Assembly: GCA_043228905.1 (NCBI GenBank)
Contig: JBHGNT010000002.1
Location: forward strand, 18,972,001-19,036,000
Length of the DNA: 64,000 nt
From: Azolla caroliniana
Taxonomy: Eukaryota; Plantae; Polypodiophyta
Reading direction: 5' to 3'
Below the pieces are notes generated by a model. The model was not told where the DNA came from. It saw only the letters and a list, made by a program, of their open reading frames with translations, and made no database searches. Position 1 is the stretch's first letter; each line of letters opens with the position of its first letter. Both the position numbers and the translations under genes were made by a program. Of the stretch, positions 1,003 through 45,100 are shown piece by piece.

Positions 1003-2165
1003 ATGGTGAGTGCACTTCCAACAAAGAAGCTTGACCGCTGCAACTACGCGCCCTAGTCATACAAGATGCACCAGTACCTGTTGGGGCATGGATATTGGAG
1101 CTTTGTGGAAGGAAGGAACGAGGTAGCGCCAGAGCTGGCACACAATGACTTTCCGGTATGGGAGCAAGGAGCGAGCCGAGTATTGTACTACCTCGCGTCC
1201 TGTGTTCACGACCAGATGCTCGGCTACATAGAGGATGCGAAAACGCCGAAGGAGGCCTGGGGAAATCTGAGGAAGATTTTCGCCGCGAGTACCACAGCTC
1301 GTAAGTTGGAGCTCCGACAAGGGCTGAACAACATCCGGCAATGAGACATGTCAGTTATGGACTACACCACCAAGATAAAGGAGATTTGTGACGTGCTCGG
1401 CTCCATCAATGTGACGGTGGATGAAAATGAGATGGTCCAAATCATAGTATGAACTATACGAACCATACGTGCATTCGCATTCGTGAATGGTTCAATCATT
1501 CGTGTAAGAAAAACACCCTCAAAGAATGATAAATACCATACTTTTGGATTAACTATTTATATGAGGTAAATAAGCCTATAAAATGGAAAAAAACAAAAAA
1601 AATCATTCAAAAAATGGGAAAAAAGAAAAAAGAAAACACAAGAATGTTTGAATAACATTTGCATTTGTTTTCCAACATAGGAAAACGAATGTTATGCTAG
1701 ACGAACATGAATTTTACGTACTATGGTCCAAATCTGCCTCGATGGTCTAGCGCAAAGGTACGGGCCAATCCGGACGGCGATCTGCACCCGAGAGAAGCCA
1801 CCGTCCTTCTTCGACTTACAATCAATGTTGATGGTCGAAGAAAACCACGTGAGCGGGTCGAGGACCACTCAATTAGACAACCGGATGTTGTACACGGAGT
1901 CGGATCTACCCCGTGGACGTGGAGGACGAGGTGGGTCGGCACGCAATGGAGACGACTGGCTAGAGCAAGACCGAAGGCACAGAGGTAGTGTCGACAACAG
2001 TTATGGACCCTCCACAAGCAGGGGGAGTCAAAGCGGCGCCGGAAGCCGGCAAGGAAAAGCCGACACGGAATGTTGGTATTGTGGCAAAAAGGGCCATAGG
2101 GAAAGCGGGTACTGGAAGAAGCTTCGGACAAATCCGGATCCAGCAAATCCGGTCGGGAAAACCGG
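1003..2165 (+). pseudogene. gag: Copia gag of A (UBN2-type gag, RG-rich stretch, zinc knuckle), split by the MITE
   Basis: ORFs 1066..1344 and 1723..2283 (CWYCGKKGHRES); collinear with the gag at 52570..53340. Confidence 0.88.
1443..1725. mobile_element. Non-autonomous hAT-like DNA transposon (MITE), 283 bp
   Basis: AT-rich insert with TIR CATAGTA..TACTATG and 8-bp TSD GTCCAAAT (1435-1442, 1726-1733). Removing it restores gag MVQIC. Confidence 0.8.
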
Positions 2166-2887
2166 TGTCGTGCCTTTCGGCTCCGGATCGTTGCGTGAGT
2201 CGGGTGGGAACCGCCGAGGTTTTGGACTAGGAGGAAGAAAAATACAAATAAGGCTAGTAAAGAATAGGTTTAAAGAGTTATAAGATAAGAATCTTGTGAA
2301 TCCCACGAGTTTAGTATATTTAGTCAATATTTAGGTAGTAAGAGAGAATTATTTTAGCAAATTCGTGAATCCCACGAATATTTTAGATTGATTGATCATT
2401 ATAGAAAAATAATCAACAAAAACTACAATGTGCTCCCCATCCTTATATAGTGATGGGAGAGACTAAGCATAGCTACATGCTTTTTTTCTAATATGTTCAT
2501 GTACACTAAATGTACATGTGATGCTTTTCTAATCCTTGCTTTTATTTGCTAAATATAGTGCTCATGCACGCTAGATGTGCATGAGTCACTTTTTAGTTGC
2601 TTGCGTTTTTCTATAAAATATTCACGCACTCTAAAAATGCATGATTTACCTTTTAATAAAGGTAGGCACAAATAAAGCATTTATAGTTATTAAATCTATT
2701 TATAGAACACTAAAGATAAGGTAGCATAATGGTAAAGTTGAGGTTTGGTAGTGTGGAGGTATAAGGTTTGAATCTTGCCTTATGCATGTGATAAATATTT
2801 TGATATTTTATTTATTTATTTATATGTATCTAAAATCGGATATATTATTTTATGGTTTTCACGTAGTGTGTGGAATACACTACAACA
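2166..2887 (-). repeat. Solo LTR of the Gypsy C family
   Basis: TGTCGTG..TACAACA; homologous to 4443-5167; flanked by CCGG on both sides. Confidence 0.88.
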
Positions 2888-3639
2888 CCGGCAAAGCTCG
2901 CACTATGTGGAAGGATCAGAAGGATTCGGGACCGGTAAAGGGCCAACCTTCGTGATGAAGCACAAGGCTAACTCGATGAAGAAGACTACTTCCAAATCAG
3001 AGGAAGTATGATATGTTAATTCCGAAGCGTCCAATCACATGACAAGCCATGAAGAGTGGTTCTCTTTTTTGGAAAAACCGGAACAATTGGGGATTGTCGA
3101 AACCGGAGACGACCCCCTCACCCGATTGTGCATGTCGGAGAAGTCCCTTTAAGCCATGTCGGACAAAAGGGGAAGCTAATGAATGTACTACATGTATCGA
3201 CTATCACAAAGAACCTGTTATCGGTCGGACAAATCGTCGACTAGGGAATGCAGGTGCGGTTTACGCACCTCGAGTGCTTCATCGAGGAAGAAGGCCGGAT
3301 AATCGCGCAAGGGCGCAGGGAAGGCAGGATGTTCATCCTCAACACCAATGACGTTGGTACCGCCATGTTTGCCAAAGGGTAGAAGGTCGAGTTAGACATC
3401 GACCTGTGGCACAAGTGGATCGACCACGTCAATTACCGGAGGCTTCAAGACCTGCAATCGAAACAAGTTGTGTTCGGATTGCTGAAATTCAGTGGACGGT
3501 AGGCCCGAATATGTGAAGCCTAACAACTCGGGAAGCAACACCGGCTTCCATTCCCCATCGAACGAAACCAGAGCTGTAACAAGCTTGACCTAATCCATTT
3601 GGATGTACGGGGACCGACACATAATGTTAGTCTTGATGG
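2888..3639 (+). pseudogene. pol: A pol: protease, GAG-pre-integrase and start of integrase (stops and frameshifts)
   Basis: YVNSEASNHMT, LHVSTITKNLLSVGQI and DLWHKWIDHVN; collinear with 53530-54220. Confidence 0.85.
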
Positions 3640-4090
3640 TGTCATGATATGGCAAGACTCGAACCCATGACCTTATGTTATATGGGTCGAGCTCTTGACT
3701 ATTATACTATCTATTGTAATACGTTAGATATTATTTTCATTTAAGTTTTATTATAGGAAATTAATGTATATTCCAAATTTCTCTAGAACATTCTAGAAGT
3801 TTCAGGACTCTTCCTGAGAACACTATAAAAGGAGGCACAAGGCATTATGTTGAACCAAATTGGTTTAACGTCAGTTTTAAGCCTCATAGCCATTTTGTAC
3901 TTACTCTTCATATAATATATCATCTATTATCATCATCTCTCTCTCTCTCTCTCTCGTCCTCGCTCTCTCTCTCTCTCTCCTCTTCTCTCTCCCTCTCTTG
4001 GGAGTCTTACGTAGTCTTGTCCTCTTAGTACTAATAGTACTTCCCTTCTCCAGTACTAATTCTCTCTCTGTTTTAGTACTATTCCTGACA
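3640..4090 (+). repeat. 5' LTR of B with TATAAAA at 3824 and a (CT)n tract
   Basis: Homologous to 21377-21839. Confidence 0.92.
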
Positions 4091-4442
4091 GTTTGAACCA
4101 ATTTTCCTCTAGTCTTCTTTTCGGTTTCCCTCATCCTCTTACCCCTTTTTTCCAATACTATGGCTACTGTTAGCGCCCAAGAATATCAAATCGTTTTCTC
4201 CGAGCTACAGGGTCTAAAAGAAAATTTTGTTGCCTTGGAACAAGAAAACCAACGATTGTTAGGGGATTTTCAACAAATCGCTCTAGAAAAACAGCAAACG
4301 CAGCAACAACAACATGGGGAGTTAGCATTACGTGTACAACAACTCGAAGCAACCATCGTAGCGTTGCAACAACAAGGATCAAGTCCCCAAGGATTTCATA
4401 AAGAGCCCAAGATTGGACTTCCTGTGAAATTCGATGGAACGT

Positions 4443-5167
4443 TGTCGTGCCTTTCGGCTCCGGATTGTTACGTGAGTCGGGCGGGAACCACTGAGGTTTT
4501 GGACTAGGAGAAAAGAAAATTCTAAGGCAATTAAGAATATGAAATATATTGTAAGAAAGAAAGATATGAAAAACTCGTGAATCCCACGAGTATAGTGTAT
4601 TAGTGAGTACTCAGATTAAGAGAGAAAAATAGTTAGCAAATTCATAAATCCCACGAATATATTATATTAATCAATCATTGTAAAATAACCAACAACCTTA
4701 TACATATTTCTCTCCTCCTTATATAAGGATGGGAGAGGCTAAGCATGTCTTCCTGCTTTCCCTAAAAGTGCTCATGCACACTAAATGTGCATGTGATGCT
4801 TTTTTTTAACCTTTTATTTGCTAAATATAGTGCTCATGCACGTTAGATGTGCATGAGTAATATTTTATTGGTTTACATTTTTCTTATAAATAAAATATTC
4901 ACGTACTCTAAAAATGCATGACTTACCTTTTTAATAAAGGTAGGCGTAAATAAGGTCTTATAGGTATTAAATCTATATTTAGAATGCTAAGGATAAGTTA
5001 GTACAATGGTAAGGTTGGGGTTTGTCTACGTGGAGGTACAGGGTTTGAATCATGCCCTATGCATGTAATAAATATATTTTTAATATTTTATTTTATTTAT
5101 TATACGTACTTTAAATCGGATATAGTATATTACATATTTCACATAGTGTGTGATTCATACTACGACA
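4443..5167 (-). repeat. 3' LTR of C
   Basis: TGTCGTG..TACGACA; homologous to 2166-2887 and 10075-11296. Confidence 0.88.
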
Positions 5168-5223
5168 CTCGCCCCCTCCGAACCTGCTCATCCTCCGATA
5201 TGTGCCGAAGTCCCCGATGCTTG

Positions 5224-8200
5224 CTATTCACCTTCATTTGAAGCTTCCTCCGATTCTCCCCTTAAGTCGACTATGAGTTGTAATCCACTTTCTTCGCTTT
5301 CCGCATCACCGCGATCTTCGTCTGATTGCTCCTCCTTGTCGGTCTTGTCTAGGATCACATAGGGTTCTTCATCAGTCCGCTTCTTGAAAATCTTCACCCG
5401 TTTCTTGGCTATAGGCAGTCGTAGCATCGTTCCATCCAACTCGCATAGTAGGTAAGTTCCATTGTCGAAAACTTTCCGAACCTCGTATGGCCCGAACCAC
5501 CTTTTCGCGAACTTCCGCATCGTTGTATGCTGATGATCCAAACTACTGTCGTAGACAATCACCCAATCTCCTTCTTCAATCTTCCGCGGTCATAGTCGGT
5601 GCTTTGTGTCGAACCGGCTTTTATCCCGAAATCACGCTTCTTGTTGTCAGCGTATTGCTTTTGCTATGTCTTCTGGTCTTCCCTCTAGTTGTCGTATCCG
5701 GACAGCTAATAGTTCTTCCCGGCTCATCTCTTCCTTCCACGGTAGCACTGTCCATGTCGCGATCGCGGTTTCTGTTGGCATTACCGGTGCTTGTCCGGTC
5801 ATGAGTTCTGCCCGCATGTAACCGGGTACGGATCTATGCGTCGTCCAATCCGCCCATAGTGCATATGGAAGCATCTGCGGCCAATCCTTCACCCTTCCAT
5901 CGCATGCCTTCGCAAGTGCTTTGACAATCGGACTCTGTCCTCGTTTGATCTTCATGTTGGCTCCCGGATTGTATGTTGTTGTCAGTGTTAACCGAGCTCC
6001 ATGTTTGGCAAAGAATCCCCAATCTTTGTCAGAGTCAAGTTCTCCCCGATCCGCAATCACTTGTCCTACGCACCCGTACATGCAAAACACCACCTCCAAA
6101 AGAAATTGGCATACCACAGAACACGTTTTCCTTCGTAGTGCTCGACCTTCTACTTGGTTTGTGAGATCTTCCCGAGCTAACACCAAGTACTTCTTTTGTC
6201 CGATCTCGGTTGGCATGGCTACAATGTCGACCATCCACTTGAAGTTGATTGTCGGTGAAAATGTCGGATGTAATTCATCTCGGTGTCAAATCCCGGAGTA
6301 GACTTGACACTTCTCACAGCTTCCCGTGAACTCCGCTACATCTTTGTACATATTCTTCCACCAATATTTTTGTTTGATTTTCACAAAAGTTGCCCATGTT
6401 CCTCGATGTCCAGCCCAATCGGATTCATGAAAGTCGGATATTATCCGGTTTTGTTGCTCTTTCATCCAGACTACCCGAAGTGGTATTCCATCCGGTCTTT
6501 TCGGCTCCCTCCATATTAATCCATTTTTCAAGAAGAACTTTCGGACTTGTCGCTTCTCCTTCAACTTCTCGAATGTACGTCCCGGGACGTCCCACCAGTA
6601 CTTCTCCTTCAGCTTCTCGAATGTGGCCCACGTTCCGCGGTGCCCGGCCCAGGGACTCTCGTGAAATGCTGCCAGTAATTCCTCCTGTTCTTCTTTCTTT
6701 GCCACTACTCGAAGCGGGATGTCGTTTCTTTTCTTTGGATGCCTCCATATGCACCTGTCCCGTAGGAAGAATCGGTATGCCTTCTTCCGTACCCGGCTCG
6801 CCTCTTCACTTGTCCACGCTGCGTCCGGTGTCATCGCCTGTAGGAACCTCCCGATTCGGAGCCACTCCCCGTCGTACCTACTTTCGTCGAATTCGTTAAG
6901 CGTCGGAGTGTCCCCTTCCCTCGTCGTCACGTTAGCCGACCCGAAGAAGTCCTCGCCGACTTCTTCATCATCCGAAACCATGCCGTCTTCGTCGTTGAAC
7001 CTCGCTCTTGAAAGCATGTCGGCCATGGCGTTATCCTTTCTGGAGATGTGTCGTATCTCTAGGTTCAGGGACTTAATGTACGCTATCCACTAGAGCATTG
7101 CTAGGTCCGGCGTCGTGCATCTGGAAACCATGCCGAGTATCGACAGGCAGTCCATCTCGATTATTACCTCCGTCCCGATCAGGTAGTCCCTGTCGGCCTT
7201 GACTACCGAAACGATACCCCATAGTTCGCGCTTGACTTGGGCATATCCTCGGTGCCGCTCGCTCAATACCTTCACCCCGAACCGGATCGGGAACCATACG
7301 CCATCCTCGTCCTCCTGGTTGATCACCCACCCGATCCCGGTCGGGCTCGTGTCCATTGTCACGTAGATGGGGACTTCCTTGTCGTAAACCACTTTACGGA
7401 GAGCTGGCGCTACCATAAGCGCCTCCTTTACTCTCCGGACTGACTCCGGACCGACTCCGTGTGCTCCATCATCCACTCAAAGCTACGCCCCCTTTTCAAT
7501 AGTCCGTAGAGGGGTTCCACGACATGTGTGTAGTGCGGGATCCAGATGTGGTAGAACCAATGCACGTCCCGACTCTCTTTTCTTTATCGTTCGTTGATAC
7601 CTCGATCTCTTGTAGCATCTTCCCGATCGTCAAGCTTTCTCCCTCATATTCTTCTTCTCGGAATTCTCGGATTACGTTTGCTCGGCATATGTGCTCTGAA
7701 GCAAAGTAGTCTTCAGAAACTTCTTCATTATTGGATTCGGCTATGTCGTCTCCGAACTGAGCTCTTGATAGCATATCCGCTACCGCTTTGTCTTTTTTGG
7801 AGATGTGTCGTACGTCCGGGTTAAGCAACTTAACATATGCAATCCATCTTAGCATAGCCACATCCGGTATCGTGCAACACCGCATCATCCCGAGTATCGA
7901 AAGACAATCCGTTTTGATCACTACTTCGGCTCTGATCAAATAATCTCGATTCGATTCGATTGCCGACACGACTCCCTATAATTCTCTTTTGACTTGTGCA
8001 TACTCGTGTCGCCTTTCGTTGAGAAACTTTGCTCCGAATCAAATCGGATATCGCGAACCATCCGGATCGGCTTGATTGATGACCCATCCGATTCCGGTTG
8101 GACTTGTGTCAACCGTTACTATGATCGGTCGGTCATAGTTTGGCTTCTTTAGTGCTTTTGCCCTTCGTAGTGATTTCTTGAGCTTCTTCACAGCTTTGGT

Positions 8201-9124
8201 ATGCTCCGGTTTGCATTCGAACTTCTTACCCTTTCGCAACAAGTGATAGAGTGGGTCTGCAATATGTGCATAGTGCGGAATCCATATGCGGTAGAATGCA
8301 CACGCTTCGAGAAACCTTCGGACTTCGAATTGTGACTCGCAGATTTCTTTCATAGCTTGAATCGCATCGATCTTGGTCGGTGACGGTCTTCGGCCGTAGG
8401 GCCCACATAGATGTCCGACTACCAATATCTCTTCTTGCCCGAATGTTGATTTCTCCTCGGAAAGTGTTAGGTGCACATCTTCTAACTTTCGAAGCACTTT
8501 CTCGCAATCGCGAATATGGTCGACTACGAACTTTCGGCATCCTCGATCATCCATAATTTCATCTTTTTCTTCTACCGCGCATCCTTTCGGCATTGTCTCA
8601 TCCATGAAGACATGTCCGATATCCACGGACTTCCAAAGTGTCGGATCTCCCGAGACTTCTTTCCTCTTTTGTTCGCTATTGGCGGGTAGTGGTCCCGCGG
8701 CCGGTTTCACCTTCTTCTCCACGGTCTTGTATTTCGTACTTACCATTGCTTCTTCTTTGTGGAGCGCATCTAACCCCATTTTTGCAATGATCTCGTACAT
8801 CTCGACCGATTCCACTGGAATTACCCGGTTTCCCTGGCTTGTATCTTCTGCGAGCTCTTCAAGCCGTTGTAGCATGCTCCCATAGAACACTTCTTCGACT
8901 ATTCCCACGATTTCTTCGTCTTCTTTTATTATTGATGCCGCCCGTAACTTATCCTCCACTTTTCGGTATTCTTTCTTCATTCCTCCAGTTACGGCCGTGT
9001 ACGTGGATGCCCCATCCGGACCGATTCGTACTTGTTTTGCTTTGAGAGTTTTCTTCCTGTGTGGGGTATCAGGGCTTCTCGGACTATCACTTCCCCACTC
9101 CGCAACAATCCACTCTAAAAATCC
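5224..9124 (-). pseudogene. pol: C pol ORF2: RT (core deleted), RNase H, integrase
   Basis: ORFs 8039..8980, 7496..7969, 7090..7476, 6286..7026, 5647..6234 and 5224..5562 (TVDTSPTGIGW, GHRGTWATF, IADRGE, FGPYEV). Confidence 0.87.
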
Positions 9125-10074
9125 ATTCTTGTTTGGGACAAGAGCTCTCTCTTGTTCCTTTCATGATTTTCCGGCACCGTTAGGAATTGGACGGATTTCC
9201 CTCCGTTTTGGCTCTGAATTCGTGCAAAAGCCGCACTGCTATCGAGCACCTTCGTCTCCATCCGTGAAGCCGTGATAAAGGGTTGCCCGAGGATCACGGA
9301 GTGTGAGACCTCGTCTTGTACGAAGAAAATTTGGTCGATCTCGACATCCCCAATCTTCATCGTCACATCCGGACAAGCCGCAAATAGATCTTCCATTGCT
9401 TTAGTGGCCGCCCGGATCTTCCATCCATGATTGGTGTTAATAGGCCACTTCCCCTTTCGGTAGAACTCCTTAGACATCAAATTGATCTCCGATCCGTGAT
9501 CAATCAATGCTAGCACGGGCTCTTTGATGTTGCCGATTCGGACCGGAGTCTTGGTAGTTGCACGCGCCTGGTGTGGCTTTGTATAGTGGGAATTCAGAAT
9601 CTCATCCTCCACTTTGGTGTCATTCATCGGAACGGTATTTGCATTCACCATCGATGCATTTTCCTCCGTAGTTTGTCTTTTCCTTTTCACGAGATACACA
9701 AGAAGATCATTGAACTCCTTTGTTGCTATTCCGAGTAGTTCCCGAAGCGAAAAATCTACCCGGTTGTCGAGGATTCTCTCCTCGAACACCTTCTTTATGT
9801 CCGTTCGTTGCTCGATGTCCGAAGCGTGTTTGAATGTCGGAATTGTTTTTCTTTTCCCTCTTCTGTCGGAGTTCCAGCTCTCCGGTGTCTTCGATGGTCC
9901 GGCCGCATCCTCCGTGCGTCGTCACTTCTCGTCCACATACACCTCATGTAATTGACATAGGACGCTATTCTTATCGACGGGGCACTCCCATCCCGTAGCT
10001 TCCTAGATGCCTTCCGCGGTGCTTCGGATCTCGTTGGAGTCGGTTTTCTTAGTGTTTTCTAGCACTTTCGGCCA
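9115..10074 (-). pseudogene. C gag C-terminus and aspartic protease
   Basis: ORF 9115..9789 with ALIDHGSEINLM, ending in MDF-stop. Confidence 0.85.
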
Positions 10075-10431
10075 GTAAAATAATCAATAACCTTATACAT
10101 ATTTCTCTTCTCATTATATAAGGATGGGAGAGGCTAAGCATGACTTCCTGCTTTCCCTAAAAGTGTTCATGCACACTAAATGTGCATGTGATGCTTTTTT
10201 TTAACCTTGCTTTTATTTGCTAAATATAGTGCTCATGCACGCTAGATGTGCATGAGTTATATTTTACTGGTTTACATTTTTCTTATAAATAAAATATTCA
10301 CGTACTCTAAAAATGCATGACTTACCTTTTTAATAAAGGTAGGCGTAAATAAAGGTCTTATAGGTATTAAATCTATATTTAGAACACTAAGGATAAGTTA
10401 GTACAATGGTAAGGTTGGGGTTTGTCTACGT

Positions 10432-11156
10432 TTTCGTAGTGTATTCCGTACACTACGTGAAAAACTTATAAAGTACCGATTTAATAAATATGAATAAATA
10501 GTAGAAAATATTAAAATATATGTAATGTGCATAGGGCAAGATTCAAACCTTGCACCTCCATGTTAATAATGTGAAACCTTACCATTACACTAGCATTTCA
10601 TTAGTGTTAAAAAGTAGATGTCCCACATAGAAAGCTAAGTTCACCTAGGATAAACTTTAGTTAAAAGAAAACGCATGCTACCACTAGCGTGTATGAACGC
10701 TATAGTTTATAAAAGAAACGCACAAGTTAGAAAAAGCATGATCACTTTAGATAAAACATATAGTCTATCTATAGAAAAAGCATGGAGTCTATAGTTAGAG
10801 AAAATGCATGGGTTGGAAAAGACTCTCTCATCTCTATATAAGGATGAGGAGCACAATGTAATGTGTGTGAAAAATATTTGGAAACTGGATATGTTTCTAA
10901 AAAACACCAATTAATAAACTATACTCGTGGGATTCACGAGGATTCTATATCATTCCCTTTCAACCCAAATTTATATTCTTACATTTATATTGATTAATCT
11001 AATATAATACACTCGTGGGATTCACGAGTTTGCTATAACTCTTTCTTACAACATATTTATATTCTTATTAGCCTTAAAACTCTCCTCTTCCTAGTCCAAA
11101 ACCCCAGCGGTTCCCACCCGACTCACGCAAATGATCTGACGCCGAAAGGCACGACA
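10432..11156 (+). repeat. Solo LTR of the C family, inserted in opposite orientation into C's own 5' LTR
   Basis: T(T)TCGTAG..GCACGACA is the reverse complement of the family LTR. TSD ACGT at 10428-10431 and 11157-11160. Confidence 0.87.
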
Positions 11157-14175: not shown

Positions 14176-14272
14176 TTCGGCCGAGGCCTATCGGCCTCGG
14201 CCGAGTTTGCTCATCAGTACTGTTCTTCTTATTTCCCATCTGGAGGGACTTGTTTCCTAACAAAATCCCCCT

Positions 14273-27820: not shown

Positions 27821-27837
27821 TGGCACGCCCGTGGGAC
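27821..27837 (+). promoter_or_regulatory. tRNA-Arg PBS-like motif at G's PPT position
   Basis: TGGCACGCCCGTGGGAC, 2 nt after the LTR end CTAACA; resembles the plant tRNA-Arg(UCU) PBS TGGCACGCCC(A/G)GTGGGAC. Confidence 0.65.
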
Positions 27838-32724: not shown

Positions 32725-35137
32725 CTACTCGAACGGATTCTGTGGCATAGGTCCACAATATGGTTTGAGTCGAAACCCATTGATCCATTTGCCCATTATC
32801 TGACCGATGAGCGTTCCGAGTTGGTATGAACCGTTGAATTCCCGCGTTATCCAATACGGTCCGATCCACCGGAACCGTAGCTTTCCCGGCATCTGACCCA
32901 TCCGGGTCTGGAACACCAGTACCGGCTTGCCGATCCCGAACATCTTCTCATTGCCCTTCCGGTGCCGATTGACAAACGCCTTCCTTCGTCGCTGCTCCAG
33001 TTCCAACTGCATGAGACTTGCTATCCGATGCTCCTCGAGTTTGCATAATGCGGCTAACCGGATTTTTTCTGATTCCTTTTCACTTAGTCGTTCTCTAACC
33101 TGTATCTGCAAACTCGGAACTTGAAATTCGATCGGGATTACTGCTTCAAGCCCAAATGCTAACCGGAATGGTGTTGACCGGATACTCGTTTTGTATGCTG
33201 TCCAGTATGCCCATAGTGCACTATGCAGCTTGGTGTCCCAATCGGTCCGGTTTTCATTGACGGTCTTTCGCAGGGTGTTTTAGAGCGTTTTGTTTGTGGA
33301 TTCGGCTAGTCCATTGGCCTGTGGATAATAAGGGGTACTGCACTTGTGTACCATTGCATAGAATGTTGTTAACCTCTCCACTACTTGATCGAGAAAATGT
33401 CCGCCTTGGTCGCTAATTAACTCGATCGGGCATCCATACCGGCACCAGATGTACTCATATAAGAACTTTGTCGTTGATGCCACAATGTTGTCCCGCAAAG
33501 CCTTGGCTTCTACCCACTTGGTGCAATAATCAGTGGCGACTATAACATATCTGTTGCCGGTTCTCATTGCGGGAGGTTTAAATGGCCCAATGAAATCCAG
33601 TCCCCATTTCTGAAATGGTTCTAAGGGTAGCATCGGCTAGTGAGGCATCCTTGTCTGTTCTGTTGGTTGGCCCATCCGTTGACATAAATCACAAACTTTC
33701 GCATACCGAACCGAGTCCTTCAGTGTTGTCGGCCACGATAGCCCGCTGTGCCATATCTTTCTTGCCGTAGCATCCCCGGCATAGTGCCCTTTGGCAATGC
33801 CACAGTGCGCTTCTCGTAATATTGTGTCCTTTTCGTCGCTTTGCACTGCTCGCCGCCATATGTCATCCGCGCCTTTGTGGTACAGGGTGTCCTGTAGTAG
33901 ACAAAAATGTCGGCTTTGTACCGCTTACCGCTTCCGCTCATCTCGGTTCATCTCCTCCGGTGGAAGTCCCGTGCTTAGGAATTGATGCATGTTGGTTAGC
34001 GACTTGTCTTCATCGACTACCGTGCTATCGACTGCCGTTTTGGTTGTTACTTTAAACAACTCAGCATCCGGAAACTCATCCGGGACTCCGTCGCTGGTCT
34101 CATCGGAGTCTAACCGGCTCAGATAATCGGCAACCGCATGTTGTATTCCCAGCCAGTGATATATTTCGAACTCAAACTCTTGTAGCAACAATGTCCATCG
34201 GGTCAGCTTGCCGGTGAGTGATGCCTTTGAGACCAAATATAACAGCGTTGAGTGGTCGACATGGAATGAAATTTTCCTTCCCAATAAATAGTGCCTGAAC
34301 TTGGTAACATTGTAAATCATCCCTAAGACTTCTCTTTCCGTTGTTGAATAATTTCTTTCCGCCTGGGGTAGCTTCTGGCTAGCATAATAGACTGGTCGGT
34401 ACCATTTCGGTTCAGTCAGTTGCATTAGTGTGCTGCCGATTGCTATGTGGGACGCATCAACGAACACGTGGAATTCTTTTGACCAGTCCGGTGGTTGCAC
34501 CATTGGTGCTTGTGATAGCAGTACTTTTAGTGCCTAGTAAGCCTCATCCTCCGTATTTGTCCATTGAAACAGTGTTTGGTGAACCGCGACATGCAACGGT
34601 GTAGCAAGATCGGCCAAATACCGAAGCATCCGGCAATGCCACCGGATTTGCCCTAGAAACCGACTCAAAGCTTTAGCCATGGATGGTGCTGGTGCTTCTA
34701 AGATTTCTTTGATCTTATTGGGGTCTACTGCGATCCCGTTCTTGCTGACAAGATGGCCCAACAATGCACCGCTTGTTACTCCGAACACACACTTTGCTGG
34801 ATTCACGCTTAACCGATAACTCCTGCATTTCTCAAGACATAGCCAGAGGTGTTGGAGATGCTCTCCTTCTCGACTATACATGACGAAGTCATCCAGGAAT
34901 ACCTACACGAATGCCGGAATGAACTCGCCAAATATTTCCATGATTATTCGTTGGAAGGTCGCCGACACGGTCTTGAGCCCGAACATCATTACCACTACGA
35001 CGAAAACTCCCCATTCGGTGATGAACGCCGTCTTGTCTTGGTCGTCGGGGTGCATCCTTATTTGATTTGTAGCTGCTAAAACCGTCTAGAAAGCTATACA
35101 CTTCATGACTGGCTACCGCGTCCAGGACTCCATCCGT
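32725..35137 (-). pseudogene. pol: G pol: RT (3' part), RNase H, integrase
   Basis: FVDASHIAIG, NYSTTERE, WGLDFIGPF, ISDQGGHF, WIGPY. Confidence 0.88.
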
Positions 35138-35777
35138 TGTCGTGAAGAAAACCGTCCACAAGCGGAATCGGTGTACCGGAGCGTAGAAACCGACTCTTCA
35201 TGCACGTGCGCCTTAAGTTGTACATAGGAGATCCTAGGTAGATTCGGTAGGTAGGGAGTAAAGGGGAAACGGCTCCTTCCTTGCCTATAAAAGGAGGGAG
35301 ACGAGGAGGGTAGAGGGATCGCGGAGAGCCGAGGACGAAGTGCTGTCGGTTTGCGTGCGAAGGCTTCTCTCTCTCTTTCTGGTTGCAAACGCCATAGCTT
35401 CCTTTTGTGCAGGTTTCGGGAGGCCCGCGCTGCTCTGAGGAATGCCCGAGTGCTTCCGGCAGCACCTCCAACCTGTTCCCGTCTTTCTGTGCGTTTACGA
35501 ACAGGTATCGGCATCTGTCCGCCGGCCTGTTCGGTTGTAACCGACTTCGTGTTTTGTTGTCCTCGTGTTCTTGTTGTTTGTCTTGTCAATACATACATAC
35601 TTTCGTGGTTTTCTGTGTCGCTGTCCCATTCGCGTCTTTGCGTCGAAGGGCCGTGTCCCTGTGAATCTACGCTCGCACGTAGTGGGTCTCTCTCTCTCTC
35701 TCTCTCTTACTCTTTGGTACACGACCCCCGAGGTCCCGCCTCACTCCACGCATCCGCGAGGAATACCTTGACATATT

Positions 35778-35794
35778 TGGTGAACCCGACGTGA
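35778..35794 (+). promoter_or_regulatory. PBS complementary to tRNA-Trp
   Basis: TGGTGAACCCGACGTGA, 4 nt after the LTR, matching the tRNA-Trp 3' end. Confidence 0.8.
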
Positions 35795-37944
35795 AAGAGG
35801 CGGCAGAAGAGCAGAAGATGAGGGGGTCGGATCTTGCAGAGGCCATGGCTTCGGCCGTGGATCGGATATTGAGCACACGCGAGGGCACCGGCGCCCTCGA
35901 CAGAGCCATTGAGGCGGTCGTCGGTACGATCGGCCGTTTCAGCGGAAAGGATGCTACGAAGTATTTGGCGTCCTACGGGGCGGAAATGCTGATGCGGGAC
36001 ATTCCGGAAGAGAGGCGTCTTGCCGGGTTCCCTCGAGTGGCGATGCTGAGCATCCATGCGGAGGTGCTCGAGGTACGGGCGGAGAGCCGTACCTGGGAGG
36101 AGTTCGAAGGTCGACTCCTAGAGAAATACGGGCTGGACGACGCGCTCCGGCTTTCGAAACAGGACTTCATGGAATGGGTGGAGTCCCCCGGCAAAGGAAG
36201 AAACGCGTTGGCACTCCTCCGGGAGTTCGAAGAACGCTTTGCGCGCCTTTCGGCGCTTAACCGAACTATCCTGGATACGAGCCGGGTCCTACTGTTCGTC
36301 AAGTCGGTGGACGAGCGGGACCGGGATCAAGTCGGCTCCTTGCTGGAAACTGAAGACGGGTTGACGACCGACTGGGCTGCGGTTAAGAGAGTCTGTGGCC
36401 GTTTCGACAAACGGCGAGAATGGGCTGACAATGGGGCGGCCGGTGCGGGCTCTGTTACAGCAAGGAGGCTTGAACCGGCGCCGCAAGTGCGAAGGGAAGA
36501 AACCCGGGAATGGCTCGAAACCGGTTCGGCTTCAACCAGCATGGCCAATGGCTCGTCCGGAGGAGCAGCGCTAGAGGAGTTGACGCGGGCGATAAAGGAT
36601 CTCCAGATCGCCCAGACTCGAAGGGAAGGCGGCGAACCGGCTCGTGACCGACAGCCGGCAGCGGGGAACAGGTGCATGTGGTGCGACGAGGTCGGCCACA
36701 TTCGGAAGGACTGCGGCGACTTCGCAGAGGCGTTGAGAAACCGGGTGGTGTACCTGTGGGAAGGCCGGGTGCACGCTGGCGACACCAGGAGGGCCCTGAG
36801 CCGAAACGACGGGCGAGGAGGTATGAAGAGACCGATGGAAGAGGCAGCGGCCCGACACGTGGAGGCCATCCACTACTCGGCGTCGGCCGGTATTCGGGTC
36901 GGGGGCAGCGAGGCCCGAAAGGAGAGTAAAGACGGTTCCTGGTCGGCAATGCTGGAAGGCCTCGCCGGCGCACAACTGAGGAAAGATGAAACGGACCGCG
37001 TTGAGAGACGGGTCCGGGAAATAACCGGGTGGAGCGATCCGGTCGAGGAGAAGACGGGCTTCGTAGAAGCCGCTTGCCGGAACTACGAGGCTCTGGTAGA
37101 AGATAAGCGAGTAGGGAAAGCCGGAGCGGCCGGGCCCTCACAACGGTACGAGACCCGATTCGGGCAACGACGGAACGATGCCGGCGGGTCCAGCCCGCAA
37201 GATAACCCCAGGAAGGGCGGGTACCGACTGGGGACAGAAATAGAAAGGACTACGGACCTACGGAAGGTCCTAGAGGAACGGATCCTCGACAGCAAAGTGG
37301 AGCTGTCATTGCGAGAGGTGCTAGGGATCGCCAAGAAGGAATTCCACGACTCCATTGTGGACCTGGTGAAACGGAAGAGGCTATCAACGGAGACGGATCC
37401 GGAAAGACCGGTAGAGGTGCGGACGACGCACATCGACGACTTGGCGCTGGCAGATGAGTGGGCGGAGAGCCACTATTCGAGGCCACACTGGGCCCGAGCG
37501 ACCACGGAGACCCCGGTAAAAATCGGAGGTGTTCAGGAACCGGTGGTAGCGTTGGTGGACCACGGTTCGGAAATAAACCTAATGTCCATGGACTTCTATA
37601 AGAAGGGGAAGTGGCCGATCAACACCAAGCACGGGTGGAAGATACGGGCGGCGACGCGCGCCACCGAGGAACTGCACGGGGCCTGCCCGAATGTGCGAGT
37701 GAAGATCGGCGACGTCGAGATTGACCAGCACTTCTTCGTACAGGAGACGTCCTCGCATCCGGTCATTTTAGGCGAACCATACATCACGGCGGCGAGAATG
37801 GAGACCAAGGTGCTGGACAACGGTTCGGCCTACTGGAGGGTCAAAAGCTAGGACGGGCGCCATTCGGTGCAATTTTTGACGGTGCGGCCGAACCACGAGA
37901 GAAACCACGAATCTCTCGGTGGCGAGAGCCGGGAGGATTTTTAG
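35791..37944 (+). CDS. gag: F ORF1: gag plus aspartic protease (premature TAG at 37849, probably from CAG)
   Basis: 686-aa ORF with CMWCDEVGHIRKDC and LVDHGSEINLM. The frame continues to EDF-stop at 37944, as in C. Confidence 0.85.
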
Positions 37945-40900
37945 AGAGGGCTGCCAAGGCGTGGGGCCGAGACAGCCCGGACACTCGGAAAAGACCCCAT
38001 GACTGTACGATAGGTAGGGGATTTTGCTTCTCCGACAACGGAGGGTGTATGCTGGTCGGCATCATTGGCCGAGAAAAGACAAGGGCGGAAGAGCGACTTC
38101 GAGCGTGCGGAGTTCTTGGCCCGGACGAGGAAATCAGCGGAGCCGTGGAGGCGGTCTCCTTCGACGACACCTTAGGGATGCTGAGGAAGGTTGCCGGAGA
38201 AGACCTTAACGAAGACCGGACGATACCGGTATGTTCCGAAAAGATGTACGAAGTCATCGCGAACTTCAGTCGGGGGCTCGGGTCGGATCGGACGGCCCGA
38301 GTTAGCACAAAGTACAAGACTGTGGACCGGAAGGTAAGGCCAGTCGCGGCACCCTTACCGGAGGGCAGCGAGTCTCGGATTAGAGGGGTTGCGTCGGACC
38401 CCAGTTTACGAGATCCGGCCTGCATAGGACACACCTTCACCGACAGGACGCTCTGGGAGCTCAAAATCGGTGGGGGCGGGTTCCTACTGCCGGCGGAGGA
38501 AGAACGGATTCGGAGGATGCTCGGAAGGCACGGGAAAGCCTTCGCATTCTCACCGGGAGAGATCGGGTGCGTAGACCCGACGATCGTGGAGCCGATGGTG
38601 ATATTCACGGTACCGCATGTACCGTGGAATCTCAAGCCGATCCCGGTACCGAGAGCTCACATCCCGAAGTTGATGGAGCTACTGAGGCAGAAAGTAGATA
38701 TGGGCATTCTCGAACCGTTGAGTGCCCCATACTCGAACCGATGGTTTACCGTACCAAAGAAAAACGGAACATTGCGCTTCATTCAGGACCTGCAGCCGGT
38801 CAACAGAGTGACCATCCGGAACGCAGGAATCGGACCGACCATAGACGAGTTCGCGGAGGCCTTCGCCGGAAGGTCGATTTACTCGGTCGGTGATCTATAC
38901 TCGGGGTACAACCAGTTCCAGCTAGCCGTGGAGAGCAGAGACATTACGACAATGCGAACTCCCCTCGGCCTAGTGCGAATGTGTACCCTGCCACAAGGAG
39001 GGACTAACTCGGTGGCTCACATGGTAAATGCAATGAACAAGGTACTGAGGGATTGCATCCCCGACATCACCATGCCATTTCTGGACGACATCCCGATAAA
39101 GGGGTGCCCGGTGGAGGAGAAGGACGAGATAGTCGGGCCGGACGGATGCCGGCGATTCATAGAGAAACACATTGACGACTGCGAGAAGGTGCTACAAAGG
39201 CTAGAGGATGCTAGGCTCACCTTCTTCGGGGAGAAATCGGCCTTCGGGCAATCAGAAATCCTGGTGGTCGGACACCTATGTGGACCTTATGGTCGGAAGC
39301 CGTCTCCGGCAAAGGTAGAAGCCATCTCCACGATGAAGACCGACTGTAGCTCGGTTACGGAAGTTCGGAGGTTCCTGGGGGCATGCGCATTCTACCACAT
39401 ATGGATCCCGCATTACTCCCACGTTGCAGAGCCGCTATACGGGTTGCTGAAGAAAGGGCGAAAATTCGAGTGGCGAGACGAGCACACGGGGTCGGTCCGG
39501 AAGCTGAAGGAAGCTCTTATGGCAGCACCGGCGCTCTGGAAGGCTGTCTCGGTACCCCGGTATACATAACGGTGGATACGAGTCTGACCGGGATTGGATG
39601 GGTCGTCAACCAAGAAGACGAGGACGGCATTCGGTTCCCGATCCGATTCGGCGCGAAGGTCCTCAGTGAGCGACAGCGAGGGTACGCCCAGGTTAAACGT
39701 GAACTCTGGGGTATCGTTTCGGTAGTAAAGGCCGACAAAGACTACCTGATCGGGACAGAAGTGATTATCGAGACGGATTGCCTGCCGATTCTTGGCATGG
39801 TCTCCGGATGCGCGACACCGGACCTGGCGATGCTCAGGTGGATAGCGTACATAAAGTCCCTGGACCCAGAGATACGACACATTTCCGGAAAGGACAACGC
39901 CATAGTCGACATGCTTTCGAGGGCGAGGTTTGATGACGAGGGCGGCATGGTTTCGGAGGACGAAGAAGTCGGCGTGGACTTCTTCAAGGCGGCATACGTG
40001 ACGACCGATGGGACGAGCACTCCGGCACTTAACGACTTCTACGAGAGCAAGTACGACGGCGAGTGGCTCCAAATCGGTGGATTCTTGAGGATAATGACGC
40101 CGGATGTGTCATGGACGAAGGGCGAGGCCAACCGGATCCGGAAGAAAGCTTACCGATTCTTTCTCTCGGACGGATACTTATGGAAGCACCCGAAGAAGAG
40201 GTACGGCGCTCCGCTCCGGGTGGTGGCGATGAAGGAAGAACAGGAGGAGCTGCTGACGGCCTACCACGACAGCCCTTGGGCCGAACACCGTGGAACCTGG
40301 GCCATGTTCGAGAAGATAAAGGGGAAGTACTGGTGGCCGGGACTGTACCGGGACGTGCATCGGTTCGTGACAACTTGCGAGAGCTGTCAGATGCACTCCA
40401 TAGTCCGACACCGGGACGAACTTCACCCTATGTACCCTCCGACCATCCACTTCAAATGGATGGTAGACCTGGTAACGATGCCGATAGGAGTAGGACAGAT
40501 GCGGTATCTGGTCCTGGCTCGGGAAGATCTAACGAACCAGGTAGAAGGTCGGGCCCTTCAGAACAAAACGACTGCGGCCGAATGTCGGTTCCTGCTCGAG
40601 GACGTAATATGCCGGTACGGGTGCGTCGGGAAGATCGTGGCTGATCGCGAGGAGTTGGACGCCGAAGAGGCCGAGGAGCTGTTCGACCGGCTAGGAGTCA
40701 AGCTCTCGCTTACCACTGCGTACAATCCGGAGGCGAATGGGAAGGTGGAGCGCGGACACGGACCGATCGTCAAGGCATTAGTTTGGGCATGCGGAGGTCG
40801 GGTCGGGAACTGGCCGCGGCTACTGCCTTACGCGTTGTGGGCTGACCGGACTACGCACAGTTCGGTAACCGGATTCATGCCGGCAGAGCTCATGTTTGGG

Positions 40901-41401
40901 CAGAAGCCGATCATGCCGATCGAACGTACGGTCTCCTCATGGGCAACCGTGGACTGGAGAGACGAGATGAGCCGGGAGGAACTGCTGACGACGCGCATAC
41001 GACAGCTCGAGCGGAGACCGGAGGACGTGGAAAAGGCTGCAGAAAAGCTTCGGGTGGCCAGGACGAGGAACAAAGCCCGGTTCGACCAGACGCACCGGCT
41101 CCGACCGAAGAAGATCGAGGAAGGCGACTGGGTGCTAGTCTACGACAGCAGCCTCGACAACCAGCACCGAGCGACACAAAAGTTCACAAGAAGGTGGTTC
41201 GGGCCTTACGTGGTACAAAGCGCCAACGACAACGGGACGTACCATCTGGCGGAACTCGACGGTACGAGAATAACGATACCGGTAGCTGGGAAGCGGATCA
41301 AGACGTTCAAGAAGCGTCACAACGACGAGCCGGATCAGGATGACTTGGACCACGACGACGAGCGATCCGAAACCGAGGAAGAGCCGACGGGCGGGGAATG
41401 A
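37935..41401 (+). pseudogene. pol: F ORF2: RT, RNase H, integrase (one frameshift near 39550)
   Basis: ORFs 38049..39569 (LPQG, FLDD) and 39383..41401 (TVDTS, EHRG, GPY). Confidence 0.88.
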
Positions 41402-42118
41402 TGGCTGGACTGGTTTTCTCCGTCCAAACACAATTTGGCGCATGCCGGTGGATGCGCGGTTAGGTGGGGGCGGATGTCGTGAAGAAAACCGTCCACAAGC
41501 GGAATCGGTGTACCGGAGCGTAGAAACCGACTCTTCATGCACGTGCGCCTTAAGTTGTACATAGGAGATCCTAGGTAGATTCGGTAGGTAGGGAGTAAAG
41601 GGGAAACGACTCCTTCCTTGCCTATAAAAGGAGGGAGACGAGGAGGGTAGAGGGATCGCGGAGAGCCGAGGACGAAGTGCTGTCGGTTTGCGTGCGAAGG
41701 CTTCTCTCTCTCTCTTTCTGGTTGCAAACGCCATAGCTTCCTTCTGTGCAGGTTTCGGGAGGCCCGCGCTGCTCTGAGGAATGCCCGAGTGCTTCCGGCA
41801 GCACCTCCAACCTGTTCCCGTCTTTCTGTGCGTTTACGAACAGGTATCGGCATCTGTCCGCCGGCCTGTTCGGTTGTAACCTACTTCGTGTTTTGTTGTC
41901 CTCGTGTTCTTGTTGTTTGTCTTGTCAATACATACATACTTTCGTGGTTTTCTGTGTCGCTGTCCCATTCGCGTCTTTGCGTCGAAGGGCCGTGTCCCTG
42001 TGAATCTACGCTCGCACGTAGTGGGTCTCTCTCTCTCTCTCTCTCTCTCTCTTACTCTTCGGTACAGGACCCCCGAGGTCCCGCCTCACTCCACGCATCC
42101 GCGAGGAATACCTTGACA

Positions 42119-45100
42119 CCGTAAATGGAAGTTGAAAGGCGTCGGTCACTGTTGCCGCATTGAGTTTCCGGTAGTCGACGCACACCCGGATCTTACCGTT
42201 CTTTTTCGGCACGTTGACTATGAGGCTTAACCATGTAGCTTTTTTCATTGGTCGGATAAAACCAACTCGTAGCAACTTGTCAATTTCCTCTTTGACCTTG
42301 GCCGCATAGTTGGGGTTCATTCAGTAACATCATTGTGCTACCGGTTTGGTATCCTTACTGAGATGTATCTAGTGTTGGTTCAATTGAGGATCCAACCCCC
42401 ACATGTCTTCATATGACCAGGCGAATACGTCCCGGAAATCCTTTAATAAAGTGATCATCGCCGTCTTGTTGTCCGGTGACATTTCCTTAGCAATATGAAT
42501 TGGTCTTGTGTCGTCCCCGGTTCCTAAGTTCACTACCTCTAACTGGGATGCTTTCACGCATTGGGATACCGCCATCTCCCTCTCTAGAGCTTCCTGTGCT
42601 TGCCGTAATTCTTGGATAGCTTCCTGATCCGGTTCCTCGATGGCATCGTTCGATTGCGTTATATATGGTGACATCGCTTCTGCCACATCGATTTCAAATA
42701 GGGGTACAATTTTTGGGTTTTCTTCTAAGTATTGGTCGACCTCTTCGTCCGCAAGCCCCTCGAGCATGTTTACACCTTCCGCATATAGCGGTGTCAGGCC
42801 CTTGCCGGTACTTGCTCGAGGGTGGGTAGGTACCCTTACTTTAGTCTTCCCTCGCCGAAAGGTAATCATGTTTTTCCACCAATTTTGTTTGATATGCGCC
42901 GTTTTTAGACATGAGCGGCCCAACAACAGTGGGTAAGCCCCTTGCGCATTGAGCTGCAGGACCACCGCCAAAATTCGGAATGCGTGGCCTCCGATAGTTA
43001 CGTCTAAATCCCGTATCAAGCCGGTAGGTCTTACCGAGCTTGTATCCGCCATTCGGAGCCAAAACGGGCAAGGCTCCCATTCCTGGATTCCCAGGGTATT
43101 ACAAGTCCGTAGACTCATCACGTTCACGCCCGATCCTCCGTCCACAATCGTCCCTGGTAGTTCTGGTCCTTTGACGATGGCGGTGATTGCCGGACTATTC
43201 ATGTCCACCACTGTTGGCCCTTCTTCCGGATTTGAGAAGAACGCAGGAGCCGACAATGGATTTGATGTGGTCATTCTCGATTTCAGTCCTTCCGTAAACT
43301 GGGGAAGTAGCTATAGTAACTGACCTAATGGCAGTGTAATTTGACATTCTTGTAACGCTTGCCATGTTGGGTCTTCTTGCTGAATCGTGTTGGTGGCGTC
43401 TTCCGGTTTTTCCTTTTGTTGTTCAAGCTCAGCCACATTTTGCTCATTTGCCTTCTTCACCCACTCGGTGGCTTGCTTTCGGATTGCCTCATGTGTTTCC
43501 CACTTCGTTGTTTTGCCTTTTGTCCTGATGGTGACTTGTTGTATGTCGGTGACTTTTGCTACCACCATATTTACGGCTGGTCTTTTCTCGTAGCTTTTAA
43601 CCGGACATTGATTATTGTAATGTCCTTCTTGTCGGCAATAGTAGTAGTACGCTTTCTGGGTGTTGCTGGATTCAGTGTTCACTCCGGTAACCGGTTGAGG
43701 TCCTATTGGTGGTCAGTTGGGTACTTGGCCTTGGTCCGGTTGGGTACTTGGCATGCCTTGTCCGGCTGCCACTAGCGGTCCTCCTGTCTAGTGTTCCATT
43801 TTTTATTGAAGTGTTTTTTGTTTCGGTAACCCTGTCGGGGCCGATTTTCATAATTATCTTGGTCCTCCCTCCGTTGGTTGTAAACGGGAGAGTGATCCCG
43901 GTTGTATCGCTCATATCGTTCACCGTTGTAATCCTGGTAGCTATCCTGTTGGTCTCGGTCGTGAGCATCCTTTCTGTCACTGTTTCGGATATCTTGCGCC
44001 GGCTAGTATTGCTCGTCTCGCCACCAATGTTCTTCTTCCTCCTCTCGGTTGCTTCGGGGTTTGATTTGCCTTACCGGTGCCGCTTGCCGGTTCAGCAAGT
44101 TATATTCGCATCGGTCCATTGTGTGCATCCTAGAATGACATAACATACACTGTGTCTGCATGGTACATTCTATTGCCGAGTGCCCGACATTGAGACAAGT
44201 TGTACATTGTATAGCTTGCCGAAAACATAGGTCGTCTTCTATCGGTAATGTACCCTGGAGTGTCCCCATTGTTAGCCACAAGCTTGTTTTCTCCATCTCC
44301 CTGACCCTTTCTATGACTTGGTCGATCATGCTGGTGCGGAAATCAATCACTGCGCACACCGTACGCAGGGGTTCCTAGAGTGCTGCTAGGAATATTGTTT
44401 TAGCCTCTGCCTTTGGTTGTACCTGATTGAGCTGATTGTGCATTCGTTGGAACCAGATTACAAATTGCTGAATGGTTTCTGTAGGTTCTTGCTGTATGGT
44501 GTAGAATAGGTTGACCATCTCTCGTTGATCCACCTCCTTGTTGAAGAACTGTAAAAATCTGGTTTTTAAGTCCTCAAACGCCGTGATGGTGCCAGGAGTG
44601 TGTGTCAAGCGCCATCGCGCAGCTGGTCCTTCCAAGGTCATGCCGAACTTTGCAATCTTCGAGCGTTCTGCTTCGGCGGCGGTCAAGTGTTGCAACACAT
44701 GGTTCGCTTCCCATGTTTGTAGAAATGCATAGATATGAGCTTCTGCATCCGGATCATCCTAGTTCTTGGGATATTGGAACGACATGTCCTTGTCGAGTGT
44801 CAGAGGTCTTTCCTCCTCTTCTTTCGGTGGCTCATGTGGCAATGTCGGAAGTTGATCCGCCACTTGTCGGTCTGGGGCTTCCACTTTCGTTAACTCTGGT
44901 TTTGGTGTCGGCGAGGTATTCGACTGCTCGTCCTCCGGTCCGTTTGGGGTATCGTGGCTGCTATGGTAATTCGAATGGGCGCTGCATTCCTCGTCCGAAT
45001 CCGATTCAAAGGCCAAGAACGGTTCCGAATCGCCTCCCCCTGTCGCTAGTGCTTGCAAAATGGATTCTGCGTCCCGGAGACTGCTCAAGCTGTGTCCTTC

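What the first reader, a model, noticed from the sequence alone, without database searches (positions are those of the whole stretch)
2162..42122. C/F Gypsy lineage: 4-bp TSDs, all centred on CpG
Seen: four independent insertions have TSDs CCGG (2162/2888), ACGT/ACGC (4439/11297), ACGT (10428/11157) and CCGT (35134/42119). The other resolved LTR insertions here have 5-bp TSDs without CG (GTTAT, AGTCA, AAGCT twice). Inference: an integrase with a 4-nt stagger and N-CG-N preference, possibly reading (methyl-)CpG, which would be a chromodomain-independent route into heterochromatin. The sample is only n=4.
Basis: partly seen in the sequence, partly recalled or inferred. Interest (0 to 1): 0.7.

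Follow-up and report, generated by a model that had tools for sequence, protein, structure and literature searches.

The report
Phygy-type retrotransposons insert at CG
These plant jumping genes almost always insert at a CG pair and copy the four letters around it, a rule already published for the moss 'Phygy' family to which they likely belong; their integrase likely reads the CG letters themselves, and a need for DNA methylation is untested and less likely.

Summary
All four 4-bp TSDs are at the stated places (CCGG, ACGT/ACGC, ACGT, CCGT), and the 4-nt length is confirmed against uninterrupted copies or reading frames. The four other resolved elements have 5-bp TSDs without CG. Related insertions from metagenome contigs raise n: 55 of 56 unique left flanks and 19 of 21 right flanks are N-CG-N, against 2.9% background CG. 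ACGT is favoured and T is avoided at the first position.

Neumann et al. 2019 list this as the hallmark of the non-chromovirus lineage Phygy (186 moss elements; 4 bp, NCGN, tRNA-Trp primer, no extra domain). F and C fit that description. No Physcomitrium reference was available, so placement in a tree with Phygy is untested, and F is slightly shorter than the published range.

Most likely the integrase reads the CG sequence directly; CG-rich transposon DNA then collects insertions passively. Methyl-CpG reading has no direct support (about 15%). New here: the refined motif, relatives in liverworts and a fern, and a clade-wide one-residue deletion beside the catalytic Asp.

The parts
2162..2165 (.). 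Left TSD CCGG of C solo LTR 1
2166..2887 (-). C-family solo LTR 1 (722 bp), inserted in a copia element
   Evidence: 78% identical to the LTR at 4443-5167
2888..2891 (.). Right TSD CCGG
4439..4442 (.). Left TSD copy ACGT of the full C element (3 of 4 match to the right copy)
4443..5167 (-). 3' LTR of the full C element
5168..5184 (-). Polypurine tract of C
   Evidence: sequence next to the LTR
5314..10002 (-). C gag-end/protease, partial RT, RNase H and integrase; a deleted mosaic (RNase H and zinc-finger segments twice, most of RT missing). Integrase 61% identical to F
10075..11296 (-). Remains of the 5' LTR of C, split by solo LTR 2; about 237 bp of its inner end and the primer site are missing
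10428..10431 (.). Left TSD ACGT of solo LTR 2
10432..11156 (+). C-family solo LTR 2 (725 bp), opposite orientation, nested in C's 5' LTR
11157..11160 (.). Right TSD ACGT of solo LTR 2
11297..11300 (.). Right TSD copy ACGC of the full C element; target is the gag of a chromodomain-bearing Tcn1-like element (B)
35134..35137 (.). Left TSD CCGT of F; target is the RT of another Ty3/gypsy element
35138..35773 (+). 5' LTR of F (636 bp; 5 substitutions against the 3' LTR over 636 aligned bases)
35778..35795 (+). Primer-binding site, conserved in 9 related loci; assignment to tRNA-Trp is recalled, not tested
   Evidence: one search found no paper with the motif
35683..37851 (+). F gag-protease frame (stop to stop), DUF4100 hit
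37725..41401 (+). F RT-RNase H-integrase, broken by a frameshift near 39545-39551. Integrase has H2C2 finger, core, SH3-like GPY domain and a short acidic tail; no chromodomain, MBD or aRH
41462..41474 (+). Polypurine tract of F; the same tract precedes 15 of 77 related LTR starts
41475..42118 (+). 3' LTR of F
42119..42122 (.). Right TSD CCGT of F

Best explanation
C and F are chromodomain-less Ty3/gypsy retrotransposons, likely of the Phygy lineage of non-seed plants, that leave a 4-bp duplication centred on CG; their integrase likely reads the CG base pairs directly while bending the target, probably whether or not the C is methylated. Shown: the 4-bp length, the near-absolute central CG, a symmetric profile (first base A>C>G, almost never T; last base T>G/C, rarely A), and the lack of any Pfam reader domain. 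Inferred from retroviral intasomes: a symmetric integrase multimer cuts the two strands 4 nt apart, needs a flexible pyrimidine-purine step at the centre and avoids T at the joining site. Inferred here: because the equally flexible TA, CA and TG steps are not used, there must also be base-specific read-out of C:G; the conserved loop before the GPY motif in the C-terminal domain is the likely reader. Inferred consequence: GC-richer, CpG-richer transposon DNA offers roughly 2.5 times more targets per base than the other flanks, so insertions pile up in transposon nests passively, without chromatin targeting.
For: TSDs and empty-site checks. 55 of 56 left flanks NCGN, CG at other registers 0-4 of 56; 19 of 21 right flanks. 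CG at -3/-2 on the left and +2/+3 on the right fits only a 4-bp duplication. ACGT 23 of 55 against 6.4% of background NCGN (p 9e-14); first-position T 1 of 55 against 37% (p 3e-10); background CA, TG and TA about 7% each, CG 2.8%. Contigs of two sequencing runs clip mostly after matching CGT (21 and 17 contigs, rough). Neumann 2019: Phygy 4 bp (100%), NCGN, tRNA-Trp 81%, no extra domain. No Chromo, MBD or aRH hit in 41 proteins, while B's chromodomain is found at 6.7e-12. Model best matches the PFV intasome, a 4-bp-stagger enzyme; YR centre and T avoidance are general for such enzymes. ZAM integrase binds its CGCGCg site in vitro in a fly without DNA methylation. Rule equally strict in TE-like (27/27) and other flanks (28/29); median CpG o/e 0.84 vs 0.49 and GC 45% vs 37%.
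Against: No Physcomitrium Phygy sequence was available, so lineage membership rests on features. F (6981 bp) is below the published range of 7656-9968 bp. The tRNA-Trp assignment is recalled. The wider sample is F-family only, from 10 metagenome assemblies of unknown host, and was found with an exact 21-mer that favours young copies. Only 3 of 17 apparent solo LTRs in those contigs have matching left and right 4-mers, the chance level (p 0.21 each), so they do not confirm duplication as pairs. Which residues read CG is a guess; the model has pTM 0.58 and no DNA. Methylation was not measured, and 27 of 56 flanks are TE-like, which a methylation-sensitive enzyme would also produce.
Confidence: 0.7

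Rival explanations
1. The integrase prefers or needs 5-methyl-CpG at the centre of the target and so enters methylated heterochromatin without a chromodomain.
For: All four window insertions and 27 of 56 flanks are in other retroelements. Transposon CG sites are about 80% methylated in P. patens. Phygy into Tcn1 is the commonest repeated nested pair in P. patens; Phygy domains are enriched at centromeres of a liverwort. A retroviral precedent for CpG methylation affecting integration exists (Kitamura 1992: title seen in a reference list; result recalled).
Against: No MBD or chromodomain, unlike CopiaMBD. TG/CA centres, which present a methyl group like 5mC on one strand, occur in only 2 of 77 flanks although they make up 14% of background steps (inference). 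The rule does not weaken in non-TE-like flanks. CG-containing targets are read without methylation by ZAM. No genome-wide baseline was available for the share of TE flanks.
Confidence: 0.15
2. Shape only: the integrase needs an easily unstacked central step, CG happens to be best, and there are no base-specific contacts.
For: Central YR preference and T avoidance are general for 4-bp-stagger integrases, and the profile here follows both.
Against: TA, CA and TG are also YR steps and each is about 2.5 times commoner than CG in the flanks, yet the 56 left flanks use them once. Retroviral YR bias is described as an enrichment, not a near-absolute rule.
Confidence: 0.1
3. A host CpG-binding protein tethers the intasome and positions the cut.
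For: Host tethering is common for retroelements (passage); the integrase has a 37-83 residue tail after GPY in 40 of 41 sequences that could bind a partner.
Against: The CG lies exactly on the dyad between the cuts, where the integrase itself holds the DNA; no local CpG enrichment near the site (0.032 vs 0.028 per base); the tail is predicted at low confidence (pLDDT under 50).
Confidence: 0.04
4. Small-sample coincidence or a boundary-calling artefact.
For: n was 4; one TSD has a mismatch; paired flanks in metagenome solo LTRs match only at chance level.
Against: 55 of 56 and 19 of 21; boundaries fixed without using the TSD; published for 186 elements.
Confidence: 0.01

Closest known systems
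Phygy (non-chromovirus Ty3/gypsy clade from Physcomitrium patens; Neumann et al. 2019, PMC6317226)
   Same: 4-bp NCGN TSD; no chromodomain, aRH or extra ORF; coding region fills the interior; primer site that I recall as tRNA-Trp; nesting into Tcn1-like elements (PMC6911290).
   Different: F is 6981 bp against 7656-9968 bp. Described there as species-specific, whereas named relatives here are from Riccia, Calypogeia and Adiantum; Phygy is also reported in the liverwort Apopellia (PMC12885004). The motif is refined here to V-CG-B with ACGT favoured.
TatI and Selgy (Neumann et al. 2019)
   Same: 4-bp TSD; TatI also uses tRNA-Trp (75%); Selgy also lacks extra domains.
   Different: No NCGN noted for either; TatI carries aRH (absent here); Selgy is 4.4-6.7 kb and uses tRNA-Ala.
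ZAM-subgroup errantiviruses of Drosophila (PMC2527525, PMC5408687)
   Same: Sequence-specific, CG-containing palindromic target chosen by intrinsic integrase binding, in a host without DNA methylation.
   Different: Longer target (CGCGCg; listed as CGCG in the review) plus a second binding site; no GPY/F motif in errantivirus integrases; unrelated lineage.
Prototype foamy virus intasome (PMC4422553; PDB 4e7k)
   Same: 4-bp stagger, central YR step, T avoided at the joining position; best structural match to the model.
   Different: Weak preference only; the loop bearing Ala188 is one residue longer than in this clade.
CopiaMBD of arthropods (PMC6673714)
   Same: The known case of a retrotransposon that reads methyl-CpG to choose regions.
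   Different: Uses a captured MBD and biases region, not the cut site; no MBD here.

Membership tests
Phygy | RT/RH/INT fall in the Phygy clade with P. patens references | not testable with these tools
   Additional files 1 and 3 of PMC6317226 were too large to read; no Physcomitrium protein among the 120 listed hits of either search. The quick tree (careful search unfinished) groups F, C and Riccia proteins (SH-aLRT 96), apart from the window's other two Gypsy integrases and an aRH-bearing protein.
Phygy | 4-bp TSD | tested here: met
   4 of 4 in the window; CG registers on both sides fit only 4 bp
Phygy | NCGN target | tested here: met
   4 of 4; 55 of 56 left and 19 of 21 right flanks
Phygy | tRNA-Trp primer-binding site (81%) | tested here: inconclusive
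   A conserved TGG-starting site follows the LTR in F and 9 loci. Its match to tRNA-Trp is recalled; no tRNA in the window, no paper with the motif. C has lost its site.
Phygy | No chromodomain, no aRH | tested here: met
   No Chromo or RVT_3 hit at E 0.01 in 41 proteins; controls positive for B and P0116; one weak RVT_3 match (E 0.013) over the ordinary RNase H of P0014
Phygy | No extra ORF; coding region spans nearly the whole interior | tested here: met
   F coding frames run from just inside the 5' LTR to 41401, 73 bp before the 3' LTR
Phygy | Length 7656-9968 bp (descriptive; the paper calls size of little weight for classification) | tested here: not met
   F is 6981 bp; C is deleted
TatI | aRH domain (100%) | tested here: not met
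Selgy | tRNA-Ala primer, 4.4-6.7 kb | tested here: inconclusive
   F is longer (6981 bp); primer type not tested directly; NCGN is not listed for Selgy
Chromoviruses (Tcn1, Galadriel and others) | Chromodomain at the integrase C-terminus | tested here: not met
   F integrase is 17% identical to the window's chromodomain-bearing B
Methyl-CpG-reading retrotransposons (CopiaMBD type) | Methyl-CpG-binding domain | tested here: not met
   no MBD hit in F's frames or 41 relatives
Methyl-CpG-reading retrotransposons (CopiaMBD type) | Binding or insertion depends on methylation | not testable with these tools
   needs methylomes or an in vitro assay

The most novel reading that the evidence does not exclude
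The Phygy-type integrase is itself a methyl-CpG reader: its core and C-terminal loop, remodelled by a clade-wide one-residue deletion beside the second catalytic Asp, cut symmetrically around a methylated CG. Silencing marks would then become the landing address, an ancient chromodomain-free route into heterochromatin across liverworts, mosses and ferns.
Probability: 0.15. Interest if true: 0.75.

Novelty: new member of a known kind. Interest (0 to 1): 0.3.

Why it matters
The rule itself is in print as one sentence and one table cell (Neumann 2019). I found no paper that explains it (searches; passages read from 3 of the 18 papers that name Phygy). Most plant LTR integrases have no sequence rule, so a near-absolute CG requirement makes this a good enzyme for asking how an intasome reads bases and whether 5-methylcytosine helps or hinders. 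Even without methyl reading, CG targeting would steer copies into CpG-rich transposon DNA, and CpG decay would remove targets over time. Annotation tools that require 5-bp TSDs would miss these elements.

Tried and rejected
No host genome is held, so no genome-wide logo. Viral contigs held no F or C end and no integrase relative; prokaryotic genome contigs held no C end; the 77 loci held no C terminus. The protein atlas gave no answer. Kitamura 1992 is not held. The P. patens TE paper PMC7466625 has no occurrence of 'TSD'. The careful tree did not finish; the quick tree has long branches and no Phygy reference; one row (P0024) was left out as too short.

Paired flanks in metagenome solo LTRs were rejected as evidence of duplication: 3 of 17 match, 3.6 expected by chance; probably assembly joins through near-identical LTRs. 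An alternative parse, 4443-11156 with a perfect ACGT/ACGT, was rejected: the flank after 11156 continues C's LTR (38 of 40 identical) and the flank before 4443 continues in gag after 11296. The laid-contig counts are biased towards longer matches and are used only as rough support.

The one-residue deletion was considered as the CG determinant. In PFV the matching residue contacts bases outside the TSD, so it is kept as a clade marker and a lead only. No complex prediction was run.
Full report
1. Observation. The window is a nest of LTR retrotransposons. The four TSDs are as stated: CCGG/CCGG around a solo LTR at 2166-2887, ACGT/ACGC around a full C element at 4443-11296, ACGT/ACGT around a second solo LTR at 10432-11156, and CCGT/CCGT around F at 35138-42118. 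Among lengths 3-6, 4 fits best in all four. When the two flanks are aligned separately to uninterrupted homologues, they overlap by exactly 4 nt for both solo LTRs; C's sister LTR carries a single ACGT at the place where solo LTR 2 sits (40/40 and 38/40 identity). For the full C element and for F no DNA homologue passed the cut-off, but the interrupted gag and RT frames repeat one Thr codon across the insertion. The other four resolved elements have 5-bp TSDs GTTAT, AGTCA, AAGCT and AAGCT. Element B is unresolved.

2. More insertions. No host genome is held. An exact search for F's first 21 bases found 77 loci in 10 metagenome assemblies. Fifteen are 3' LTRs preceded by F's polypurine tract, 62 have host flanks, and 6 of these are duplicates. 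Of the 56 unique left flanks 55 end in N-CG-N; the exception is CCAT, which looks like a deaminated CG (inference). Background CG is 2.9% (p about 1e-83), and CG at the other ten registers occurs 0-4 times. Of 37 loci long enough to reach the LTR end, 9 continue into the primer site, 5 had no usable end and 23 have host flanks (21 unique); 19 of 21 begin N-CG-N, the exceptions being TCCA and CTGG. CG at -3/-2 on the left and +2/+3 on the right fits only a 4-bp duplication. The profile is symmetric: first base A 36, C 12, G 7, T 1; last base A 2, C 10, G 11, T 33. ACGT makes up 23 of 55 against 6.4% of background NCGN; first-position T is 1 of 55 against 37%. Against my reading: only 3 of 17 apparent solo LTRs have matching left and right 4-mers, the chance level, so these short-read contigs do not confirm pairs. 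The host of these loci is unknown, their LTRs are diverged sisters of F, and the exact pattern favours young copies. Contigs from two sequencing runs give rough support: most clipped contigs listed stop after matching CGT (21 and 17; 18 rows not shown), and four junction words not forced by my reference are all NCGN. No further C-family ends were found.

3. What the elements are. F is 6981 bp, with 636/644-bp LTRs that differ at 5 of 636 aligned bases, a primer site at 35778, a gag-protease frame, an overlapping RT-RNase H-integrase frame broken near 39545-39551, and a polypurine tract. C is a deleted mosaic whose integrase is 61% identical to F's. The nearest named proteins are from Riccia (60%), Adiantum (55%; 72% in RT) and Calypogeia. 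With a chromodomain-bearing Tcn1-like neighbour, this points to a non-seed land plant (inference). A quick tree joins F, C and these relatives (SH-aLRT 96), apart from the window's other two Gypsy integrases (26% and 17% identity). Pfam finds no chromodomain, MBD or aRH in 41 integrase-containing proteins; the controls were positive. The model shows a zinc finger, core, SH3-like domain and a low-confidence tail (pLDDT 74, pTM 0.58) and matches PFV and Ty3 intasomes best. All 27 rows of the clade have one residue fewer just after the second catalytic Asp than the 7 other rows, PFV or Ty3.

4. What is known. Neumann et al. [quoted passage not shown] Their table gives 186 elements, 4 bp (100%), NCGN, 7656-9968 bp, tRNA-Trp 81%, no extra domain or ORF. 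PMC6911290 (passages) confirms mostly 4-bp TSDs for Phygy, GC-rich centres in 4-bp TSDs, and Phygy-in-Tcn1 as the commonest repeated nested pair in P. patens, the arrangement of C in B here. PMC12885004 (passages) reports Phygy in a liverwort, enriched at centromeres. F meets TSD length, NCGN, domain content and layout. Its length is below the range, the tRNA-Trp match is recalled, and the defining test, a tree with Phygy references, could not be run; the unread supplements bear on this. I therefore call the elements Phygy-type and likely Phygy.

5. Mechanism. For retroviral integrases with 4-bp TSDs, a flexible YR step at the centre is favoured and T is avoided at the joining position, largely independent of chromatin (PMC4422553; abstract and passages). 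Both hold here. But TA, CA and TG are each about 2.5 times commoner than CG in the flanks and are almost unused, so I infer base-specific read-out of C:G. In PFV a C-terminal-domain Arg contacts the edges of the site; the loop before GPY in this clade has nearly invariant Gln-His, Lys and Arg-Trp and is my candidate, untested. ZAM integrase binds its CGCGCg target in vitro (PMC2527525, passages; review PMC5408687, passages) in a fly that has lost DNA methylation (PMC6673714, abstract and opening), so CG-containing targets need no methyl mark. For the methyl idea: 27 of 56 flanks resemble the window's transposon proteins, transposon CG is about 80% methylated in P. patens (PMC9994747, passages), and Kitamura 1992 is a precedent (title only; result recalled). 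Against it: no reader domain, TG/CA centres in only 2 of 77 flanks, the same strictness in TE-like (27/27), other (28/29) and CpG-poor flanks (20/20), and no CpG cluster near the site. TE-like flanks have higher GC and CpG o/e (45%, 0.84 against 37%, 0.49), about 2.5 times the CG density by my estimate from these medians, so plain CG reading would already favour transposon nests. Methylation itself was not measured.

6. Novelty and verdict. What this adds is a refined motif, relatives in liverworts and a fern, a clade-wide loop deletion and a clear test for methyl dependence. I found no paper on the mechanism (most results seen as listings only). New member of a known kind; interest 0.3. The methyl-reading version has about 15% probability and would deserve 0.75.

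Noticed in passing
window 27336-45797: Gypsy element D (TSD AAGCT, host of F). A primer-site-like motif follows the left LTR on the + strand at 27821, yet gag, pol and several extra ORFs (28316-32442) all lie on the - strand, and the right LTR lacks its first bases. Locus L073 shows the same LTR/gag orientation. The LTR has 15-bp terminal inverted repeats. Inverted interior or unusual family; unexplained.
   Followed up: partly
window 40643-40657: All 27 integrases of the F/C clade are one residue shorter just after the second catalytic Asp than PFV, Ty3 and the other Gypsy rows; a clade marker in a loop known to touch target DNA.
   Followed up: partly
window 5314-10075: The full C element is a mosaic: RNase H and integrase zinc-finger segments occur twice (68% alike), most of RT is missing, and the inner 5' LTR, primer site and start of gag are gone.
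   Followed up: partly
window 3640-21839: Element B is Tcn1-like with an intact-looking chromodomain. Its flanks do not form a clean TSD (ATGG/CTGG), and the host copia lacks about 330 bp at this place against the copy at 54222-54552.
   Followed up: partly
window 49181-49417: A further RT/RNase H fragment of the F/C kind (58% identical to a relative) without LTR ends.
   Followed up: no
window 46001-48000: CpG o/e drops to 0.08 in this copia stretch while most of the window is near 1.
   Followed up: no
L007, L032, L046: Three contigs share the same non-NCGN sequence (TCCA...) after the LTR end; perhaps a high-copy derivative rather than an insertion site.
   Followed up: no
window 35870-35890 (table 5c): Contigs show F-family copies inserted into F's own leader region just after the primer site, again at NCGN.
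   Followed up: no
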